A stretch of DNA of 64,000 nt. Source: Escherichia coli. GTDB taxonomy: Bacteria; Pseudomonadota; Gammaproteobacteria; Enterobacterales; Enterobacteriaceae. The notes beneath the pieces were generated by a model that did not search any database, was not told the DNA's origin, and saw only the letters and a list, made by a program, of their open reading frames with translations. Every line of letters starts with the position of its first letter. The stretch's first letter is position 1. Positions 20,331 through 37,211 of this stretch are shown here, piece after piece. The stretch lies in NCBI RefSeq assembly GCF_044324785.1, contig NZ_CP172127.1; one strand, written 5' to 3'. The position numbers were made by a program, and so were the translations under genes.

Positions 20331-20365
20331 AAAAACAAAACGCCACGTAAATACGTGGCGTTTTT
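20331..20365 (-). terminator. Bidirectional intrinsic terminator downstream of rho
   Basis: CGCCACGT / ACGTGGCG stem with AAAT loop, flanked by an A-run on one side and T5 on the other, about 15 nt past the rho stop. Confidence 0.65.
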
Positions 20366-27746: not shown

Positions 27747-27750
27747 CAGC

Positions 27751-27775
27751 AAGGCCTTCTCCGGGAGAAGGCCTT
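27751..27775. terminator. Bidirectional hairpin between convergent ppiC and ilvC
   Basis: AAGGCCTTCTCC / GGAGAAGGCCTT near-perfect palindrome within the 45-bp spacer. Confidence 0.55.
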
Positions 27776-27791
27776 GAACTCTGAATCGCAC

Positions 27792-29267
27792 TTAACCTGC
27801 AACAGCAATACGTTTCATATCCGTCATATAGCCGCGCAGTTTCTTACCTACCTGCTCAATCGCATGGCTGCGAATCGCTTCGTTCACATCACGCAACTGC
27901 GCGTTATCTACCGCACCTTCCGGAATAGCTTTACCCAGGTCGCCCGGTTGCAGCTCTGCCATAAACGGTTTCAGCAGCGGCACACAAGCGTAAGAGAACA
28001 GATAGTTACCGTATTCAGCGGTATCAGAAATAACCACGTTCATTTCATACAGACGCTTACGGGCGATGGTGTTGGCAATCAGCGGCAGTTCGTGCAGTGA
28101 TTCATAGTAAGCAGACTCTTCGATGATGCCGGAATCAACCATGGTTTCAAACGCCAGCTCAACGCCCGCTTTTACCATCGCGATCATCAGTACGCCTTTA
28201 TCGAAGTACTCCTGCTCGCCGATTTTGCCTTCATACTGCGGCGCGGTTTCGAACGCGGTTTTGCCGGTCTCTTCACGCCAGGTCAGCAGTTTCTTATCGT
28301 CGTTGGCCCAGTCAGCCATCATACCGGAGGAGAATTCGCCGGAGATGATATCGTCCATATGTTTCTGGAACAGCGGTGCCATGATCTCTTTCAATTGCTC
28401 AGAGAGCGCGTAAGCGCGCAGTTTCGCCGGGTTAGAGAGACGGTCCATCATCAGCGTGATGCCGCCCTGTTTCAGTGCTTCGGTGATGGTTTCCCAACCG
28501 AACTGAATTAGTTTTTCTGCGTATGCCGGATCGGTGCCTTCTTCCACCAGCTTGTCGAAGCACAGCAAAGAGCCAGCCTGCAACATGCCGCACAGGATGG
28601 TTTGCTCGCCCATCAGGTCAGATTTCACTTCCGCAACGAAGGACGATTCCAGCACGCCCGCACGGTGACCACCGGTTGCTGCCGCCCATGCTTTAGCGAT
28701 CGCCATGCCTTCGCCTTTCGGATCGTTTTCCGGGTGAACGGCAATCAGCGTCGGTACGCCGAATCCACGTTTGTACTCTTCACGCACTTCGGTGCCCGGG
28801 CATTTCGGCGCAACCATTACTACGGTGATGTCTTTACGGATCTGCTCTCCTACTTCCACGATGTTGAAACCGTGCGAGTAACCCAGCGCCGCGCCATCTT
28901 TCATCAACGGCTGTACGGAACGCACAACGTCGGAATGCTGCTTATCCGGCGTCAGGTTAACCACCAGATCCGCCTGCGGGATCAGTTCTTCGTAAGTACC
29001 AACTTTAAAGCCGTTTTCGGTCGCTTTACGCCAGGACGCGCGCTTCTCGGCAATCGCTTCCTTACGCAGAGCGTAGGAGATATCGAGACCAGAATCACGC
29101 ATGTTCAGGCCCTGGTTCAGACCCTGTGCGCCACAGCCGACGATGACCACTTTTTTACCCTGAAGGTAGCTCGCGCCATCGGCGAATTCATCGCGCCCCA
29201 TAAAGCGACATTTGCCCAGCTGTGCCAGCTGCTGGCGCAGATTCAGTGTATTGAAGTAGTTAGCCAT
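27792..29267 (-). CDS. ilvC: Ketol-acid reductoisomerase, 491 aa
   Basis: Start at [17 protein letters not shown]...; the ORF track adds 74 upstream codons that run into the ilvY promoter region. Confidence 0.95.
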
Positions 29268-29416
29268 GGTGATTCCTCGTGATGTTGTGCTTCTTATTGT
29301 TCGGTTCGCGTTTGCGAGATTGAATTCACTATATGACAGGAAATTTATTGCGGAAATTGATATATTCACAACGTCACATTGCAATTTCTGCAACGTCAAC
29401 ATCGAGGGCTGCGCCT
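29268..29416. promoter_or_regulatory. Divergent ilvY / ilvC promoter-operator region
   Basis: 149-bp spacer between divergent starts; location of the IlvY operators is established knowledge, individual sites not mapped here. Confidence 0.55.
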
Positions 29417-30307
29417 GTGGATTTACGCGATCTGAAAACCTTCCTGCATCTGGCGGAAAGCCGCCATTTTGGCCGTAGCGCGCGGGCAATGCACGTTAGC
29501 CCGTCTACGCTTTCGCGACAAATACAGCGCCTGGAAGAAGATCTCGGTCAGCCGCTGTTTGTGCGTGATAACCGCACGGTAACGCTGACGGAAGCGGGCG
29601 AAGAACTGCGCGTTTTCGCCCAGCAAACACTGTTGCAATATCAGCAATTGCGCCACACCATCGACCAGCAAGGGCCGTCGCTCTCTGGTGAATTACATAT
29701 CTTCTGCTCGGTGACCGCTGCCTACAGCCATCTTCCACCGATTCTCGACCGCTTCCGCGCGGAACATCCGTCAGTGGAGATCAAACTCACTACCGGTGAT
29801 GCGGCCGATGCGATGGAAAAGGTGGTCACTGGCGAAGCGGATCTGGCGATTGCGGGTAAACCGGAAACCTTGCCGGGCGCAGTGGCGTTTTCGATGCTGG
29901 AGAATCTGGCGGTGGTGCTGATTGCTCCCGCGCTGCCCTGCCCGGTGCGTAATCAGGTATCTGTCGAAAAGCCCGACTGGTCTACAGTGCCGTTTATCAT
30001 GGCCGATCAGGGACCGGTACGCCGCCGCATTGAACTGTGGTTTCGGCGTAACAAAATCAGCAACCCAATGATTTACGCCACGGTTGGCGGGCATGAAGCG
30101 ATGGTATCGATGGTGGCGCTCGGCTGTGGCGTGGCGCTGTTGCCGGAAGTGGTGCTGGATAACAGCCCGGAACCGGTGCGTAACCGCGTGATGATTTTAG
30201 AGCGCAGTGATGAAAAAACGCCGTTTGAGCTGGGCGTGTGCGTACAAAAAAAGCGGCTTCATGAGCCGCTGATTGAGGCGTTCTGGAAGATTTTGCCGAA
30301 CCACTAA
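29417..30307 (+). CDS. ilvY: LysR-type regulator IlvY, GTG start
   Basis: Start at GTG ([23 protein letters not shown]...), helix-turn-helix at the N-terminus; the ORF track begins 28 codons upstream. Confidence 0.88.
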
Positions 30308-31848
30308 CCCGCCAAAAAGAACCTGAACGCCGGGTTATTGGTTTCGTCGTGGCAATCGTAGCCCAGTTCATTCAGCCGGGTTTCAAAATCCGGTTCATGA
30401 TCGCCAAGCTCGAACGCCGCCAGTACGCGCCCGTAGTCGGTACCGTGGCTGCGATAATGGAACAGCGAGATGTTCCAGTGCGTACCCAGCGTGTTGAGGA
30501 AGCGCAGCAGCGCGCCCGGTGATTCCGGGAATTCGAAGCTGTATAGGCGTTCCTGCAACGGATGCGATGGACGCCCGCCAACCATATAGCGCACGTGTAG
30601 CTTCGCCATTTCGTCGTCGGAGAGATCAACCACGCTGTAGCCGCCGTCGTTGAGCATCTGCAAAATTTCTTTGCGCTCTTCGAGACCGCGGCTCAGGCGC
30701 ACGCCGACAAAAATGCAGGCGTTTTTGGCATCAGCAAAGCGGTAGTTGAACTCGGTGACCGAGCGCCCACCAAGTAACTGGCAGAATTTGAGGAAGCTGC
30801 CCTTTTCTTCCGGAATGGTCACCGCCAACAACGCTTCACGCTGTTCGCCCAGTTCGCAGCGTTCCGAGACGTAGCGCAGACCGTGAAAGTTCACGTTGGC
30901 ACCGGAAAGAATATGCGCCAGCCGTTCACCGCGAATGTTGTGCTGGGCGATGTATTTTTTCATCCCTGCCAGCGCCAGCGCGCCAGAGGGTTCAGCCACC
31001 GCGCGTACATCTTCGAACAGGTCTTTCATCGCCGCACAGATGGCATCGCTATCGACGGTGATGATGTCGTCAAGATACTCCTGGCACAAACGGAAGGTTT
31101 CATCGCCGATGCGTTTTACCGCGACGCCTTCAGCAAACAGCCCCACGCGGGGCAGATCAACGGGATGACCCGCATCCAGCGCTGCTTTCAGGCAGGCGGA
31201 ATCTTCCGCTTCCACGGCGATCACTTTGATTTGCGGCATCAGTTGTTTGATCAGTACCGCGACGCCCGCCGCCAGACCGCCGCCGCCGACCGGTACAAAT
31301 ACGCGGTCGAGATGGGCGTCCTGCTGGAGCAGTTCCAGCGCCAGCGTGCCTTGCCCGGCGATCACCATCGGATGGTCGAACGGCGGTACCCAGGTGAAAC
31401 CCTGCTGCTGTGACAGTTCGATCGCTTTCGCTTTCGCTTCATCGAAATTTGCGCCGTGAAGCAGCACTTCGCCGCCAAAGCCGCGCACCGCATCAACTTT
31501 GATATCGGCGGTGGCGGTTGGCATGACGATCAGCGCCTTCACGCCTAACCGTGCGGAAGAAAACGCGACGCCCTGCGCGTGGTTACCCGCAGAAGCGGTG
31601 ATCACGCCGTGCGCTTTTTGTTCTTCCGTCAGGCCCGCCATCATGGCGTATGCGCCGCGCAGCTTAAAGCTGTGTACTGGCTGGCGATCTTCGCGCTTCA
31701 CCAGAATCACGTTATCAAGACGCGACGACAGTTTTTCCATTTTCTGTAGCGGCGTGACCTGCGCCGCTTCGTAGACCGGCGCGCGCAGCACCGCTCTTAA
31801 ATATTCGGCACCTTCCGGGGTACCGGACAGGGGTTGCGAGTCAGCCAT
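30304..31848 (-). CDS. ilvA: Threonine deaminase (biosynthetic), 514 aa
   Basis: 514 aa ORF with PLP-dependent fold and C-terminal regulatory domains. Confidence 0.95.
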   Translation of the reverse strand: MADSQPLSGTPEGAEYLRAVLRAPVYEAAQVTPLQKMEKLSSRLDNVILVKREDRQPVHSFKLRGAYAMMAGLTEEQKAHGVITASAGNHAQGVAFSSARLGVKALIVMPTATADIKVDAVRGFGGEVLLHGANFDEAKAKAIELSQQQGFTWVPPFDHPMVIAGQGTLALELLQQDAHLDRVFVPVGGGGLAAGVAVLIKQLMPQIKVIAVEAEDSACLKAALDAGHPVDLPRVGLFAEGVAVKRIGDETFRLCQEYLDDIITVDSDAICAAMKDLFEDVRAVAEPSGALALAGMKKYIAQHNIRGERLAHILSGANVNFHGLRYVSERCELGEQREALLAVTIPEEKGSFLKFCQLLGGRSVTEFNYRFADAKNACIFVGVRLSRGLEERKEILQMLNDGGYSVVDLSDDEMAKLHVRYMVGGRPSHPLQERLYSFEFPESPGALLRFLNTLGTHWNISLFHYRSHGTDYGRVLAAFELGDHEPDFETRLNELGYDCHDETNNPAFRFFLAG

Positions 31849-31850
31849 TA

Positions 31851-33701
31851 TTAACTCCCCAGTTTCGATTTATCGCGCACCGCACCTTTGTCGGCGCTGG
31901 TTGCCAGGCTGGCGTAGGCGCGCAACGCAAAGGAGACCTGACGTTCGCGATTTTTCGGCGTCCAGGCTTTGTCGCCACGAGCTTCCTGCGCTTCACGACG
32001 CGCCGCCAGTTCGGCATCGCTTACCTGTAACTGAATGCCACGGTTGGGAATGTCGATAGCGATAAGATCGCCGTCTTCAATCAGACCAATGCTGCCGCCG
32101 CTTGCCGCTTCCGGCGAGACGTGGCCGATGGAAAGACCAGAGGTGCCGCCGGAGAAGCGTCCGTCGGTGATCAGCGCGCAGGCTTTACCGAGACCCATTG
32201 ATTTCAGGAAGCTGGTTGGGTAGAGCATTTCCTGCATCCCCGGACCGCCTTTCGGGCCTTCGTACCGGATCACCACTACATCGCCAGCGACAACTTTGCC
32301 GCCGAGAATCGCTTCTACCGCGTCATCCTGGCTTTCGTACACTTTCGCCGGGCCGGTGAATTTGAGGATGCTGTCATCGACGCCCGCGGTTTTAACAATG
32401 CAGCCGTTTTCTGCGAAATTACCGTAGAGCACCGCCAAGCCGCCGTCTTTGCTGTAGGCGTATTCCAGCGAGCGGATACAGCCGTTTGCGCGATCGTCAT
32501 CGAGAGAATCCCAACGGCAATCCTGCGAGAATGCCTGTGTAGTACGAATGCCAGCAGGGCCTGCGCGGAACATATTTTTAACCGCGTCATCCTGGGTCAG
32601 CATAACGTCGTATTGTTCCAGCGTTTGCGGCAACGTCAGGCCAAGCACGTTTTTCACATCACGGTTCAGTAACCCCGCGCGATCCAGTTCGCCAAGAATA
32701 CCGATAACACCACCAGCACGATGAACATCTTCCATATGGTATTTCTGGGTGCTCGGCGCAACTTTACACAGCTGTGGAACCTTGCGGGAGAGCTTATCAA
32801 TATCACTCATGGTGAAGTCGATTTCCGCTTCCTGCGCCGCCGCCAGCAGGTGAAGTACCGTGTTGGTAGAGCCGCCCATCGCGATATCCAGCGTCATGGC
32901 ATTTTCAAACGCCGCTTTGCTAGCAATATTGCGCGGCAGTGCACTTTCGTCGTTTTGCTCGTAGTAACGTTTGGTCAATTCAACAATGCGTTTACCGGCA
33001 TTGAGGAACAGCTGCTTGCGATCGGCGTGGGTCGCCAGCAGCGAGCCGTTGCCCGGCTGCGACAGGCCCAGTGCTTCGGTCAGGCAATTCATAGAGTTAG
33101 CGGTAAACATCCCGGAGCAAGATCCGCAGGTTGGACAGGCGGAACGTTCAACCTGATCGCTCTGGGAGTCAGAAACTTTCGGGTCTGCGCCCTGGATCAT
33201 CGCATCAACCAGATCGAGCTTAATGATCTGATCGGACAGTTTGGTTTTCCCGGCCTCCATCGGACCGCCGGAAACAAAGATCACCGGAATATTCAGGCGC
33301 AGGGAAGCCATCAGCATCCCCGGGGTGATTTTGTCGCAGTTAGAGATGCAGACCATAGCGTCGGCGCAGTGGGCGTTGACCATATATTCAACGGAATCAG
33401 CGATCAGTTCGCGAGATGGCAGTGAATAAAGCATGCCCCCGTGGCCCATAGCGATCCCATCATCCACCGCAATGGTGTTGAACTCTTTGGCAACGCCGCC
33501 AGCCGCTTCAATTTGTTCGGCGACCAGTTTACCGAGATCGCGCAGATGGACGTGACCCGGTACAAATTGGGTGAACGAGTTCACAACCGCGATAATCGGC
33601 TTACCGAAATCGGCGTCGGTCATTCCGGTGGCGCGCCACAGCGCACGAGCACCCGCCATATTACGACCATGAGTGGTGGTGGCGGAACGGTACTTAGGCA
33701 T
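31851..33701 (-). CDS. ilvD: Dihydroxy-acid dehydratase, 616 aa
   Basis: 616 aa ORF; ilvD/edd family motifs. Confidence 0.95.
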
Positions 33702-33765
33702 ACTTTATTTACTCCCAGTGTCTGTCTCGTAAATGGGACGGTGCGTGCCGTCCCATTTTTTGTAT

Positions 33766-34695
33766 TTATTGATTAACTTGATCTAACCAGCCCCATTTAT
33801 CTTCGGTTTCGCCAGTGAAGAGGCCGAAGAAGGCTTGCTGAATGCGTTTGGTAACCGGGCCACAACGGCCTTCGCCAACCTGAATACCGTCTACGCTGCG
33901 CACTGGCGTGATTTCTGCCGCCGTACCGGACATAAACACTTCATCCGCCAGATACAGGGATTCGCGCGACAGCACCTGCTCACGCACTTCAATTCCCAGC
34001 TCTTTCGCCAGTTTGATGATGGCGTCACGGGTAATACCCGGCAGCGCGGATGAGGTGAACGGTGGGGTGAACAGCACACCGTCTTTCACTTCAAACAGGT
34101 TTTCGCCTGCGCCTTCAGAGATATAACCGTTCACATCCAGCGCGATACCTTCCTGATAACCGTGGCGGCGCGCTTCGCTACCCACCAGCAGGGAAGAGAG
34201 GTAGTTACCACCGGCTTTTGCCGCCGTCGGGATGGTGTTTGGTGCTGCGCGGTTCCAGGAGGAAACCATCGCATCGATCCCCTGCTCCAGCGCTTCTGCG
34301 CCCAGATACGCTCCCCACGGGAAAGCGGCGATAATTACATCGGTTGAGTATCCCGCTGGCGGGTTAACGCCCATACCAACATCACCGACGAAGATCAGCG
34401 GACGGATATAGGCGCTGGTGAGATTGTTTTTGCGGATCACGTCACGACAAGCTTCCATCAGCTCATCAATGCTCTGCGAAACCGGGAAGCGATAGATTTT
34501 GGCGGAGTCATGCAGACGCTGCATATGCTCACGATGGCGGAATACAACCGGTCCTTTGTGCGAGTCGTAGCAACGGATGCCTTCAAAAACCGAGGTGCCA
34601 TAGTGCAGCGCGTGCGACATCACATGCACCTTCGCGTCTTTCCAGCGAACCATCTCCCCATTGAACCAAATGTAATCAGCTTTCTTCGTGGTCAT
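33766..34695 (-). CDS. ilvE: Branched-chain amino acid aminotransferase, 309 aa
   Basis: Start at MTTKKADYIWFNGEM...; the ORF track adds 22 codons. Confidence 0.95.
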   Translation of the reverse strand: MTTKKADYIWFNGEMVRWKDAKVHVMSHALHYGTSVFEGIRCYDSHKGPVVFRHREHMQRLHDSAKIYRFPVSQSIDELMEACRDVIRKNNLTSAYIRPLIFVGDVGMGVNPPAGYSTDVIIAAFPWGAYLGAEALEQGIDAMVSSWNRAAPNTIPTAAKAGGNYLSSLLVGSEARRHGYQEGIALDVNGYISEGAGENLFEVKDGVLFTPPFTSSALPGITRDAIIKLAKELGIEVREQVLSRESLYLADEVFMSGTAAEITPVRSVDGIQVGEGRCGPVTKRIQQAFFGLFTGETEDKWGWLDQVNQ

Positions 34696-34714: not shown

Positions 34715-34978
34715 TCAGGCGCGGATTTGTTGTGATGTGGTTGTGCTCTGGCAGATGGCAACGTGTGCGACGTCCACCAGTTTATTTAACTGACTAAACA
34801 GTAAGTCGACCGACCGTGGGCTGGCAACGGTCAATTCGATATTTATATTTTGTGCATCGCTGGCGGCAGCCATATTCATTGAGCAGACGTGGAAACCACG
34901 ATGACGCACCACGCGTAAAACACGTTCTAAGGTTTCTGGATTGAAGCGAGCCGATACATTGACCTGATGTTGCATCAT
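34715..34978 (-). CDS. ilvM: Acetolactate synthase II small subunit, 87 aa
   Basis: 87 aa ORF whose start overlaps the ilvG stop (ATGA). Confidence 0.92.
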
Positions 34979-36623: not shown

Positions 36624-36674
36624 TTAGTTCCCCGTCCTGAATCTTGAGAAACAGAATTTTGTGCTGTTATTCAT
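36624..36674 (-). CDS. ilvX: Small peptide IlvX, 16 aa
   Basis: Manually translated [16 protein letters not shown] between the attenuator and ilvG, matching the recalled ilvX peptide. Confidence 0.55.
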
Positions 36675-36703
36675 TGTCTGCTCCTCGGTTATGTTTTTAA
36701 GGT

Positions 36704-36736
36704 CAAAAAAAACCCCCGGACCTTTCGGTGCGGGGG
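36704..36736 (-). terminator. ilvLXGMEDA attenuator terminator
   Basis: CCCCCG / CGGGGG hairpin followed on the minus strand by U8, directly downstream of ilvL. Confidence 0.8.
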
Positions 36737-36760
36737 TCTTAGTTCGTTAAGGCTTGATCT

Positions 36761-36859
36761 CTAAGCCTTTCCTCGTCCAAGTGCAGCCCCGCACGGTGGG
36801 ATAATAATCACCACCACGCTAATCACGACCAGGCTAATCACTCGTAGAAGGGCTGTCAT
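36761..36859 (-). CDS. ilvL: ilv operon leader peptide, 32 aa, rich in Val, Ile and Leu
   Basis: Manually translated MTALLRVISLVVISVVVIIIPPCGAALGRGKA with runs of regulatory Ile/Val/Leu codons. Confidence 0.88.
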   Translation of the reverse strand: MTALLRVISLVVISVVVIIIPPCGAALGRGKA

Positions 36860-37211
36860 TTTGTCTTTTCTTGCATCTTGTTCGAAGGAATGCCTAAAGA
36901 GTTACCATAGATTTTGCGAATAGCACAAGATATTTTTTGGCCGATTTTTATGATGCGTTTAATAATTTCAATAGAAATTGTTGTTTTTTAAAAAGAAAAT
37001 AGTGAGTGAAAAAAATTCAATTTCAGTATAAATGTTGTTCCCTTCCTCGTAGTTCATCCTTTGTCCGCTGCATTTTTGCGAGCATCATTCCACCGCCAGA
37101 ACAACTCAACTTCACTTGCACAAATAAACAGGAATCAGCCACTAAAATTCACGAATTAGCGGGCTACAGCAGCGATATCTTATGCACATAATGGTGACTC
37201 AAGGAGGGCTT

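What the first reader, a model, noticed from the sequence alone, without database searches (positions are those of the whole stretch)
33731..33761. GC-rich hairpin with T-tract in the ilvE-ilvD spacer, oriented antisense to the ilv operon
AAATGGGACGG(tgcgtg)CCGTCCCATTT followed by TTTTTT reads as an intrinsic terminator on the plus strand, opposite to ilvE and ilvD. On the coding strand it is a stable hairpin preceded by an A-run with no U-tract. It could terminate an antisense transcript from within ilvD, or act as an mRNA processing or stability element.
Basis: seen in the sequence. Interest (0 to 1): 0.3.

Follow-up and report, generated by a model that had tools for sequence, protein, structure and literature searches.

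The report
Conserved ilvE–ilvD mRNA stem-loop
The hairpin between the E. coli genes ilvE and ilvD is real and has been kept by selection as a structure in the ilv messenger RNA itself across enteric bacteria, so it most likely tunes the stability or 3' ends of that mRNA; it is unlikely to exist mainly as a stop signal for antisense transcripts.

Summary
Window 33731-33758 is a perfect 11+6+11 inverted repeat. It folds at about -19 kcal/mol on either strand and sits in the 64-nt ilvE-ilvD spacer of E. coli, which is identical to K-12. One detail is wrong: the T-run has 6 T in all, and 3 of them lie inside the stem.

In 56 distinct ilvE-ilvD spacers from Enterobacterales, a hairpin occupies the same place in about 45. 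All 11 pairs show compensatory changes. Internal wobble pairs are 16 G·U on the ilv sense strand against 2 that would suit the antisense strand. The structure is therefore selected in the ilv mRNA.

The T-tract that makes it look like a plus-strand terminator scores as high as the ilvL attenuator in E. coli. It is confined to the Escherichia/Salmonella/Klebsiella group. No promoter-like site reads into it, and no 3' end is listed there, although that dataset is insensitive for this operon. On the sense strand the U-tract is sub-threshold in E. coli but clear in Morganellaceae.

The hairpin is single-copy, not REP, and has no Rfam match. It lies 4 nt upstream of the published GcvB pairing site of ilvD. 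The best reading is an intercistronic mRNA 3'-end or stability element, possibly a leaky sense terminator. It is an ordinary kind of element that has not been characterised here. No experiment assigns the function.

The parts
33731..33758 (-). Stem-loop in the ilv mRNA. Sense sequence: AAAUGGGACGG CACGCA CCGUCCCAUUU. Arms 33731-33741 and 33748-33758, loop 33742-33747. The core is 7 G-C-rich pairs plus U-A; the outer three A-U pairs are poorly conserved.
   Evidence: sequence, fold, perfect inverted repeat. (41-sequence alignment: 88.8% of cells paired against 69.5% in shuffles and 34-44% in slid controls; 11 of 11 pairs with double changes; RNAalifold independently finds the 9-bp core). (16 G·U against 2 A·C).
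33756..33761 (+). T6 run on the + strand, equal to the A6 run 5' of the hairpin in the mRNA. It gives the antisense strand a terminator-like tail. 33756-33758 also form the outer stem pairs.
   Evidence: A contiguous run of at least 5 is seen only in the Escherichia, Salmonella, Klebsiella and Superficieibacter-type spacers.
33766..33768 (-). ilvE stop codon (UAA), 7 nt upstream of the extended stem. The ilvE CDS is 33766-34695.
33727..33730 (-). 4-nt linker ACGA between the hairpin and the GcvB seed site. Together with the stem's UUU it forms the weak sense tail AUUUACGA.
   Evidence: (sense terminator score -10.2).
33719..33726 (-). GACAGACA, positions -25 to -18 of ilvD: the target of the GcvB sRNA R3 seed (GcvB nt 155-162). 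C-19 is the residue of the published compensatory mutant.
   Evidence: PMC9299463. Duplex geometry recomputed.
33712..33716 (-). Shine-Dalgarno sequence GGGAG of ilvD. GGAGT is invariant in all 41 aligned spacers.
33699..33701 (-). ilvD start codon (CDS 31851-33701). The 3' end of the hairpin lies 25-30 nt upstream of it in nearly all relatives.

Best explanation
The feature is a conserved intercistronic RNA stem-loop of the ilvGMEDA mRNA, so the functional strand is the minus strand of the window. What is shown: it folds stably, it is kept by compensatory substitutions, and its wobble pairs work only in the sense transcript. It is single-copy, and the whole spacer is frozen between E. coli and Salmonella. 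What is inferred: it acts at the RNA level to define or protect 3' ends of the upstream ilv(G)ME part of the transcript. It would do this as a barrier to 3'-to-5' exonucleases after cleavage or termination downstream, and, where a U-tract follows, as a leaky intrinsic terminator. Either way, ilvE expression is partly uncoupled from ilvD-ilvA. ilvE also has its own internal promoter. In E. coli the sense U-tract is degenerate (AUUUAC), so exonuclease blocking is more likely than termination. The plus-strand terminator look is a lineage-specific consequence of an A-rich linker 5' of the hairpin. At most it is a secondary function.
For: A hairpin occupies the same position in about 45 of 56 distinct spacers from Enterobacteriaceae, Erwiniaceae, Morganellaceae, Budviciaceae-like and unnamed metagenomic lineages. 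Covariation is strong: 88.8% of cells paired against 69.5% in shuffles (0 of 500 reach the observed value) and 34-44% when partners are slid; all 11 pairs have double changes. RNAalifold predicts the same 9-bp core. The strand test gives 16 internal G·U against 2 A·C in a strand-neutral search (binomial p = 0.0013). Stem sequences are unrelated between families (GGGACGG, CGGGCGUC, CAGGCGG, AGCGAGUAG), which argues for structure rather than a sequence motif. In most lineages the tail is terminator-like on neither strand: sense score above 0 in 4 of 54 spacers, antisense in 14 of 54. Hairpins without a U-tract are the known signature of exonuclease-blocking 3' structures (concept in PMC6061677). 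Sense-strand U-tracts appear in Morganellaceae and a few others. In some species an ERIC element, itself a long hairpin, replaces or accompanies the stem-loop. That fits a generic structural role. The spacer is identical at all 64 positions apart from a one-base insertion (an extra A) between E. coli and Salmonella, while flanking third codon positions are only 65-70% identical. It is 100% identical in 5272 of 5424 E. coli genomes.
Against: No direct evidence of 3' ends or differential stability could be retrieved. Curated Term-seq tables list no 3' end in the spacer on either strand, though they also miss the operon's distal end. The loop is more conserved than a pure barrier needs: CACGCA across Enterobacteriaceae, (U)UCGUUC(C) across Morganellaceae on different stems. 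That hints at sequence-specific recognition. The hairpin keeps a nearly constant distance (25-30 nt) from the ilvD AUG and abuts the GcvB site, which fits a role in ilvD initiation or regulation equally well. The full conservation of the A-run between E. coli and Salmonella is not explained by a barrier role.
Confidence: 0.45

Rival explanations
1. It is part of the ilvD translation-initiation and sRNA-control module. Placed 4 nt 5' of the GcvB R3 target and about 13 nt 5' of the SD, the hairpin could serve in three ways: as a structural anchor or Hfq platform for GcvB action, as a 5' protective hairpin for an RNase E-processed ilvDA mRNA, or as an insulator that keeps the ilvD leader unpaired.
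For: The distance to the ilvD AUG is constant at 25-30 nt, even with ERIC-type inserts upstream (L131, L185, L087, L219). The GcvB seed site lies at -25 to -18, with published compensatory genetics. [quoted passage not shown] An A-rich stretch lies 5' and AUUU 3' of the stem. The loop is conserved within families.
Against: In two lineages the insert lies between the hairpin and ilvD, so the hairpin stays with ilvE (L204, L213). Modelled deletion or disruption of the hairpin hardly changes predicted accessibility of the GcvB site (0.695 to 0.703) or of the SD (0.549 to 0.530). Erwiniaceae keep the hairpin but lack the CA-rich GcvB-type site and have variable loops.
Confidence: 0.25
2. One reading: a plus-strand intrinsic terminator that stops antisense transcription coming from within ilvD or ilvA before it enters ilvE, ilvM and ilvG.
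For: In E. coli the + strand has a 12-pair stem followed by T-rich TTTGTATTTA, and the terminator scan ranks it first. Its score of +43.8 equals that of the ilvL attenuator. The A-run/T-tract is kept in Salmonella (T7), K. pneumoniae (T5), K. michiganensis (T7) and Superficieibacter (T7). Antisense transcription does exist in the operon: Rho-dependent regions lie antisense to ilvA and ilvG.
Against: The tract is missing or replaced in most other lineages that keep the hairpin; some have TTTT on the sense side instead. Sense-only G·U pairs weaken or break the antisense stem even in lineages that keep the A-run (L085, L087, L154). No sigma-70-like site lies on the + strand between 29000 and 33731. 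ilvY read-through is stopped by Rho about 2.6 kb before the hairpin, and the other Rho region lies downstream of it. No minus-strand K-12 3' end is listed near 3953418. The only ORF on that strand (33441-33776) is broken in Salmonella.
Confidence: 0.1
3. It is a true bidirectional element: a leaky terminator for sense transcripts and a strong one for antisense transcripts. The A-tract and U-tract flanks would be selected for both directions.
For: A-rich 5' and U-rich 3' flanks occur together in the Escherichia, Salmonella and Klebsiella group and in L215, L108 and L210. The entire spacer, including both flanks, is frozen between E. coli and Salmonella.
Against: In only 2 of the 54 spacers (L108, L210) is the score above 0 on both strands, and there only just; none scores well on both, and E. 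coli's sense score is -10.2. The position inside a co-directional operon, with no convergent transcription unit, is atypical for bidirectional terminators (my knowledge of Ju et al. 2019, whose data could not be read).
Confidence: 0.1
4. It has no RNA function: a DNA-level palindrome (protein-binding site) or a relic of a mobile repeat such as REP or ERIC.
For: ERIC elements insert repeatedly in this spacer. The K-12 operon carries REP285.
Against: REP285 is in the ilvA-ilvY spacer, not here. The hairpin has no REP or ERIC consensus and is single-copy in 5424 genomes. Stem sequences differ completely between families while pairing is kept, and the G·U asymmetry is an RNA signature.
Confidence: 0.04

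Closest known systems
Intercistronic mRNA-stabilising stem-loops (for example the REP hairpins between malE and malF in E. coli, and the pufBA-distal hairpins of Rhodobacter)
   Same: A stable G-C-rich hairpin in the sense transcript between two cistrons, without a proper U-tract. It is expected to block 3'-to-5' exonucleases and so favour the upstream cistron(s). An ERIC element can take its place in some species.
   Different: It is a locus-specific hairpin conserved by covariation over a whole bacterial order. The stabilising effect has not been measured for this locus.
Rho-independent (intrinsic) terminators, including bidirectional ones
   Same: G-C-rich stem, short loop and flanking A and T runs. 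On the + strand of E. coli it meets the usual sequence criteria as well as the ilvL attenuator does. In Morganellaceae the sense strand meets them.
   Different: In E. coli the sense tail has only 3 U. The antisense tail is not conserved and has no known transcript to terminate. The element lies inside an operon rather than at the end of a transcription unit.
3' hairpins that mark processed ends of Rho-terminated transcripts (Dar and Sorek 2018, PMC6061677)
   Same: A stem-loop lacking a U-tract that could fix a precise 3' end after exonucleolytic trimming.
   Different: No Rho-dependent site is known just downstream on the sense strand, and no 3' end is documented here.
GcvB/Hfq-regulated mRNA leaders (ilvD is a verified GcvB target, PMC9299463)
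   Same: The hairpin is immediately 5' of the verified R3 seed site in the same 64-nt spacer.
   Different: The published work does not assign any role to the hairpin. The modelled accessibility of the site does not depend on it.

Membership tests
Intrinsic terminator, + strand (antisense to ilv) | G-C-rich stem-loop of at least 5 pairs with a short loop | tested here: met
   12 pairs, 6 G-C, loop of 4, -19.1 kcal/mol
Intrinsic terminator, + strand (antisense to ilv) | T/U-tract directly after the stem | tested here: met
   T6 run 33756-33761. Tail score 5.05 and d = +43.8, against +44.8 for the ilvL attenuator (formula from memory)
Intrinsic terminator, + strand (antisense to ilv) | RNA 3' ends at the tract in vivo | tested here: inconclusive
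   None in the curated Term-seq tables of PMC7815308. Those tables also lack the 3' end after ilvA, so sensitivity is too low.
Intrinsic terminator, + strand (antisense to ilv) | A transcription unit that reads into it | tested here: not met
   No promoter-like site on the + strand at 29000-33731. The antisense ORF is broken in Salmonella. Rho stops ilvY read-through 2.6 kb earlier. A consensus scan cannot exclude weak promoters.
Intrinsic terminator, + strand (antisense to ilv) | Tract conserved wherever the hairpin is conserved | tested here: not met
   Antisense score above 0 in 14 of 54 spacers. A contiguous A-run of at least 5 occurs only in one subclade.
Intrinsic terminator, - strand (sense) | U-tract directly after the stem | tested here: not met
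   In E. coli the tail is AUUUACGA, with 3 U, and d = -10.2. The feature is met in Photorhabdus, Providencia, Morganella, L108 and L215.
REP (repetitive extragenic palindrome) | REP consensus sequence and many genomic copies | tested here: not met
   One place per genome in 5424 genomes. No consensus match in the spacer. The operon's REP285 is the ilvA-ilvY element.
Intercistronic mRNA stabiliser hairpin (functional class) | Stable hairpin in the sense transcript between cistrons, maintained by selection | tested here: met
Intercistronic mRNA stabiliser hairpin (functional class) | Upstream segment ends at the hairpin and outlives the downstream segment | not testable with these tools
   This needs Northern blots, 3'-end mapping and half-life data. 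Older Northern work on ilv transcripts could not be retrieved.
Any curated RNA family (Rfam 15) | Covariance-model match | tested here: not met
   No hit at the spacer, even at E-values up to 10
GcvB target module of ilvD | Hairpin contributes to GcvB/Hfq regulation | not tested
   Only adjacency to the seed site and loop complementarity are shown.

The most novel reading that the evidence does not exclude
The hairpin may be more than a passive structure: it may present a family-specific loop that makes a second, loop-mediated contact with the sRNA GcvB. In Enterobacteriaceae the loop CACGCA is complementary to GcvB nt 35-40 (UGCGUG), whose centre is the predicted apical loop of SL1. In Morganellaceae the loop UUCGUUCC, carried on three unrelated stems, is 8/8 complementary to the conserved GGAACGAA (nt 13-20, mostly internal-loop positions) of the same species' GcvB. 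This could explain the published R3-independent residual repression of ilvD. An unknown loop-specific RNA-binding protein is the alternative.
Probability: 0.08. Interest if true: 0.6.

Novelty: new member of a known kind. Interest (0 to 1): 0.3.

Why it matters
The ilvGMEDA operon is a textbook system, yet this spacer element has no annotation, no Rfam family, and no mention in the literature I could search. It is conserved by covariation on the sense strand across an entire bacterial order. It also sits beside a verified sRNA target site. It is therefore a concrete, easily mutable handle on how enzyme ratios (IlvE against IlvD and IlvA) are set within one operon. The finding also carries a caution for terminator prediction. 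A hairpin can score as a first-rate terminator on the 'wrong' strand only because of a lineage-specific A-run. The practical surprise is modest, because intercistronic stabiliser hairpins are a well-known class.

Tried and rejected
1. **REP identity, rejected.** A paper links REP285 to the ilv operon. I located REP285 in the K-12 ilvA-ilvY spacer, not in this spacer.
2. **Rfam.** No match.
3. **Energy comparison of the two strands, uninformative.** Sense mean is -16.5 and antisense -16.1 kcal/mol (Wilcoxon p = 0.66). The antisense loop UGCGUG gives one extra closing pair, which masks the effect. I replaced this test with a strand-neutral wobble count.
4. **Insulator hypothesis.** Modelled deletion or flipping of the stem barely changes accessibility of the GcvB site or the SD. 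This gives no support, but it is only thermodynamic modelling.
5. **Experimental 3'-end and cleavage data.**
   - Adams 2021 lists no ends, but is insensitive here.
   - The TERMITe and SMRT-Cappable-seq supplements have no ilvE or ilvD entries.
   - For Dar and Sorek, the nanopore paper, Conway 2014 and the multi-study 3'-seq preprint, no supplements are held.
   - The supplements held for the TIER-seq paper yielded only per-5'-UTR cleavage-site counts, and no site in the spacer could be looked up; one file was cut when stored.
   - Lalanne 2018, Ju 2019, Li 2014, Thomason 2015 and Huang 1992 are not held.
6. **Literature searches.** Searches for a description of this hairpin found nothing relevant.
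7. **Coding potential of the antisense ORF 33441-33776, rejected.** The ORF has a stop in Salmonella.
8. **The Veillonella 'ilvD motif' riboswitch candidate.** It is unrelated.

Full report
**Observation.** The window is E. coli. A 701-nt query around the site is 100% identical to strain N3 and matches 5424 of 5426 complete genomes. The ilvE-ilvD spacer is identical to that of K-12 MG1655. ilvGMEDA lies on the minus strand: ilvD at 31851-33701 and ilvE at 33766-34695. At 33731-33758 the + strand reads AAATGGGACGG-tgcgtg-CCGTCCCATTT, followed by TTT. The repeat finder confirms a perfect 11-nt inverted repeat with 6 nt between the arms. It is one of five such repeats among those listed for the 64-kb window. 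The RNA fold is -19.1 kcal/mol on the + strand and -19.0 on the - strand, with z-scores of -3.8 and -4.4. The six T include the three that pair with AAA, so only three T follow the full stem.

**Not a known repeat or RNA family.** The 55-nt segment occurs once per genome and is 100% identical in 5272 of 5424 E. coli genomes. Rfam gives no hit in the spacer even at permissive thresholds. A paper associates 'REP285' with the ilv operon. That element is the classical REP in the K-12 ilvA-ilvY spacer, not this hairpin.

**Comparative evidence.**
- I collected ilvE-ilvD spacers from one scan of species-representative genomes, from contigs encoding named IlvE proteins, and from one metagenome scan anchored on the ilvE 3' end with a pattern that excludes E. 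coli.
- This gave 56 distinct spacers. About 45 carry a G-C-rich hairpin of 7-11 pairs in the same place.
- Vibrio species have short spacers without a hairpin.
- A MAFFT alignment of 41 spacers puts the hairpins in register.
- On that alignment 88.8% of cells form standard pairs, against 69.5% in shuffles (0 of 500 reach the observed value) and 34-44% when the 3' partners are slid. All 11 pairs show changes on both sides.
- RNAalifold independently predicts the 9-pair core, and every pair has compensatory changes. The outer two A-U pairs are frequently unpaired.
- Stem sequences are unrelated between families: GGGACGG in Enterobacteriaceae, CGGGCGUC in Erwinia- and Pantoea-like sequences, CAGGCGG in Photorhabdus, Providencia and Morganella, and AGCGAGUAG in Proteus.

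**Which strand?** A hairpin of Watson-Crick pairs folds on both strands, but G·U pairs become A·C mismatches on the complement. In a strand-neutral search I allowed both kinds inside stems. Among 32 distinct hairpins I found 16 internal G·U on the ilv sense strand and 2 A·C (binomial p = 0.0013; the events are not fully independent phylogenetically, but they lie at different positions and in different lineages). The structure is therefore selected in the ilv mRNA. A plain energy comparison of the two strands was uninformative, because the antisense loop gains an extra closing pair.

**Terminator features.** I used a d'Aubenton-Carafa-type score, with the formula recalled from memory.
- The E. 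coli + strand scores +43.8, the same as the ilvL attenuator terminator at +44.8. The sense strand scores -10.2.
- Across 54 spacers the antisense score is above 0 in 14 and the sense score in 4. In most spacers neither strand has a terminator-like tail.
- A contiguous A-run of at least 5 upstream of the stem, which is the antisense T-tract, is confined to the Escherichia, Salmonella, Klebsiella and Superficieibacter-type sequences. Other lineages have mixed A/T or even T-runs there.
- Morganellaceae and a few others (L108, L210, and L215, which is labelled ECOR29) have clear sense-strand U-tracts.
- No sigma-70-like site lies on the + strand in the 4.7 kb upstream of the hairpin.
- The only + strand ORF across the hairpin (33441-33776) is interrupted in Salmonella.
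- Published Rho-termination data place the end of ilvY read-through about 2.6 kb before the hairpin. A second antisense Rho region lies downstream of it.
- The curated Term-seq tables of the same study list no 3' end in the spacer on either strand. They also lack the 3' end after ilvA, so this negative result carries little weight.

**Constraint and neighbours.**
- Between E. coli and Salmonella the spacer is identical at all 64 positions apart from a one-base insertion (an extra A). Third codon positions of the flanking ilvE and ilvD are only 70% and 65% identical.
- The 28-nt hairpin, including its loop, is also identical in K. pneumoniae, although the flanks differ.
- Four nucleotides 3' of the stem lies GACAGACA (-25 to -18 of ilvD; window 33719-33726).
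- This pairs with the R3 seed of the sRNA GcvB (nt 155-162), in exact agreement with the published compensatory pair C-19G/G156C (PMC9299463).
- The 3' end of the hairpin is 25-30 nt from the ilvD AUG in nearly all lineages, even where ERIC-type elements are inserted between the ilvE stop and the hairpin (L131, L185, L087, L219). In L204 and L213, however, the insert lies on the other side.
- In C. werkmanii (L004) and L094 an ERIC element takes the place of the hairpin.
- Thermodynamic modelling does not support an insulator role. Deleting or flipping the stem changes the predicted unpaired probability of the GcvB site and the SD only slightly.

**Mechanism.**
- Shown: a sense-strand RNA hairpin under purifying and compensatory selection, usually without a canonical U-tract, sitting between two cistrons and next to an sRNA site.
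- Inferred (confidence about 0.45): it defines or protects 3' ends of the upstream part of the ilv transcript. It would act as an exonuclease barrier in E. coli and as a leaky terminator where a U-tract follows. This would give ilvE, which has its own internal promoter, an expression level partly independent of ilvDA.
- This is the class of element exemplified by the malE-malF REP hairpins and by the stem-loops at processed 3' ends of Rho-terminated transcripts (PMC6061677).
- Rivals: a role in the ilvD leader and GcvB/Hfq module (0.25), an antisense terminator (0.1), a truly bidirectional terminator (0.1), and a non-RNA palindrome or relic (0.04).

**An unexpected detail.**
- Loops are conserved within families more than a passive barrier would need.
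- CACGCA is found in most of the Enterobacteriaceae-type hairpins (22 of 53 distinct spacers, and embedded in the enlarged loop of four more). (U)UCGUUC(C) is found in Proteus, Photorhabdus, Providencia, Morganella and L213 on three unrelated stems.
- The Morganellaceae loop is 8/8 complementary to GGAACGAA (nt 13-20) of the GcvB of the same species (P. cinerea; loop-shuffle frequency 0.003). This segment is conserved in the Rfam GcvB model and lies mostly in internal-loop positions.
- The E. coli loop is 6/6 complementary to GcvB nt 35-40, which is centred on the predicted SL1 apical loop. Chance alone gives this 5-13% of the time.
- Erwinia-type loops vary and show no such match.
- I treat this as a low-probability lead, not a finding.

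**Verdict.** The reading as an mRNA structure with a role in stability or processing is supported by comparative evidence. The element is an uncharacterised member of a well-known class. Interest is modest.

Noticed in passing
window 30252-30307; K-12 locus L001 8877-8927: The ilvA/ilvY convergent junction differs from K-12. K-12 has a 51-bp spacer holding a classical REP (REP285). In the window the ilvA and ilvY stop codons overlap (30304-30307), and a terminator-like hairpin for ilvA (minus strand 30270-30252, AGCGGCTCATGAAGCCGCT + T7) lies inside the 3' coding end of ilvY. Among E. coli genomes this 271-nt region is at least 99% identical in only 101, and 90-95% in 4128.
   Followed up: partly
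L004, L094, L131, L185, L219; remnant in L087/L088: ERIC (IRU) elements or their ends (ATACCCGTCATACTTCAAG...) have inserted repeatedly in the ilvE-ilvD spacer of other Enterobacterales, usually between the ilvE stop and the hairpin. In L004 and L094 the element replaces the hairpin. This looks like an insertion hot spot.
   Followed up: partly
L091, L007, L010, L213, L219, L220 versus L217 381-578: The Morganellaceae ilvE-ilvD hairpins share the loop (U)UCGUUC(C) on different stems. The loop is 8/8 complementary to nt 13-20 (GGAACGAA) of GcvB in the same species (shuffle frequency 0.003).
   Followed up: partly
window 36641-36930 (-): Rfam RF02744 'Rev39_5p_UTR' (soft-rot Enterobacteriaceae 5' UTR) matches at 157 bits over the ilvL leader/attenuator region upstream of ilvG. 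That Rfam family therefore appears to be the ilv leader under another name.
   Followed up: no
window 34821-34849 (+), about window 35670 (+): A promoter-like site lies antisense within ilvM (CTGGCA-17-TATATT), about 820 nt upstream of the position that corresponds to a published Rho-dependent termination region antisense to ilvG (K-12 3951509, minus strand). An antisense RNA may start here, downstream of the hairpin.
   Followed up: partly
window 33441-33776 (+): A 111-aa ORF antisense to the ilvD 5' end runs through the hairpin. It has an in-frame stop in Salmonella and is taken as spurious.
   Followed up: yes
protein cluster of window IlvE (P0001, P0121-P0135): The 90% cluster that holds E. 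coli IlvE also holds 548-aa acetolactate synthase (IlvG) sequences and has one as its representative. A 403-aa IlvM-IlvE fusion product (P0001) exists and may be what links them. This looks like a clustering artefact that could mislead look-ups by cluster.
   Followed up: no
L093 (Symbiopectobacterium) spacer: The 254-nt ilvE-ilvD spacer carries an insert bounded by 14-nt inverted repeats (TTAGGCTGTGTCCC ... GGGACACAGCCTAA). It looks like a MITE, and the usual hairpin is absent.
   Followed up: no
window 20337-20364 and 27750-27776: Two other perfect 13-nt inverted repeats with very short loops. 20337-20364 is AAAACGCCACGTA/TACGTGGCGTTTT, flanked by A- and T-runs like a bidirectional terminator. 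27750-27776 matches the ilvC-ppiC intergenic hairpin of K-12.
   Followed up: no
L215 (NZ_CP197071.1, labelled E. coli ECOR29): This 'E. coli' genome matches the hairpin segment at only 89.8% identity. Its hairpin variant has a sense-strand U-tract (CCCUUUUAUUA). The record may be a divergent lineage or a mislabelled species.
   Followed up: partly
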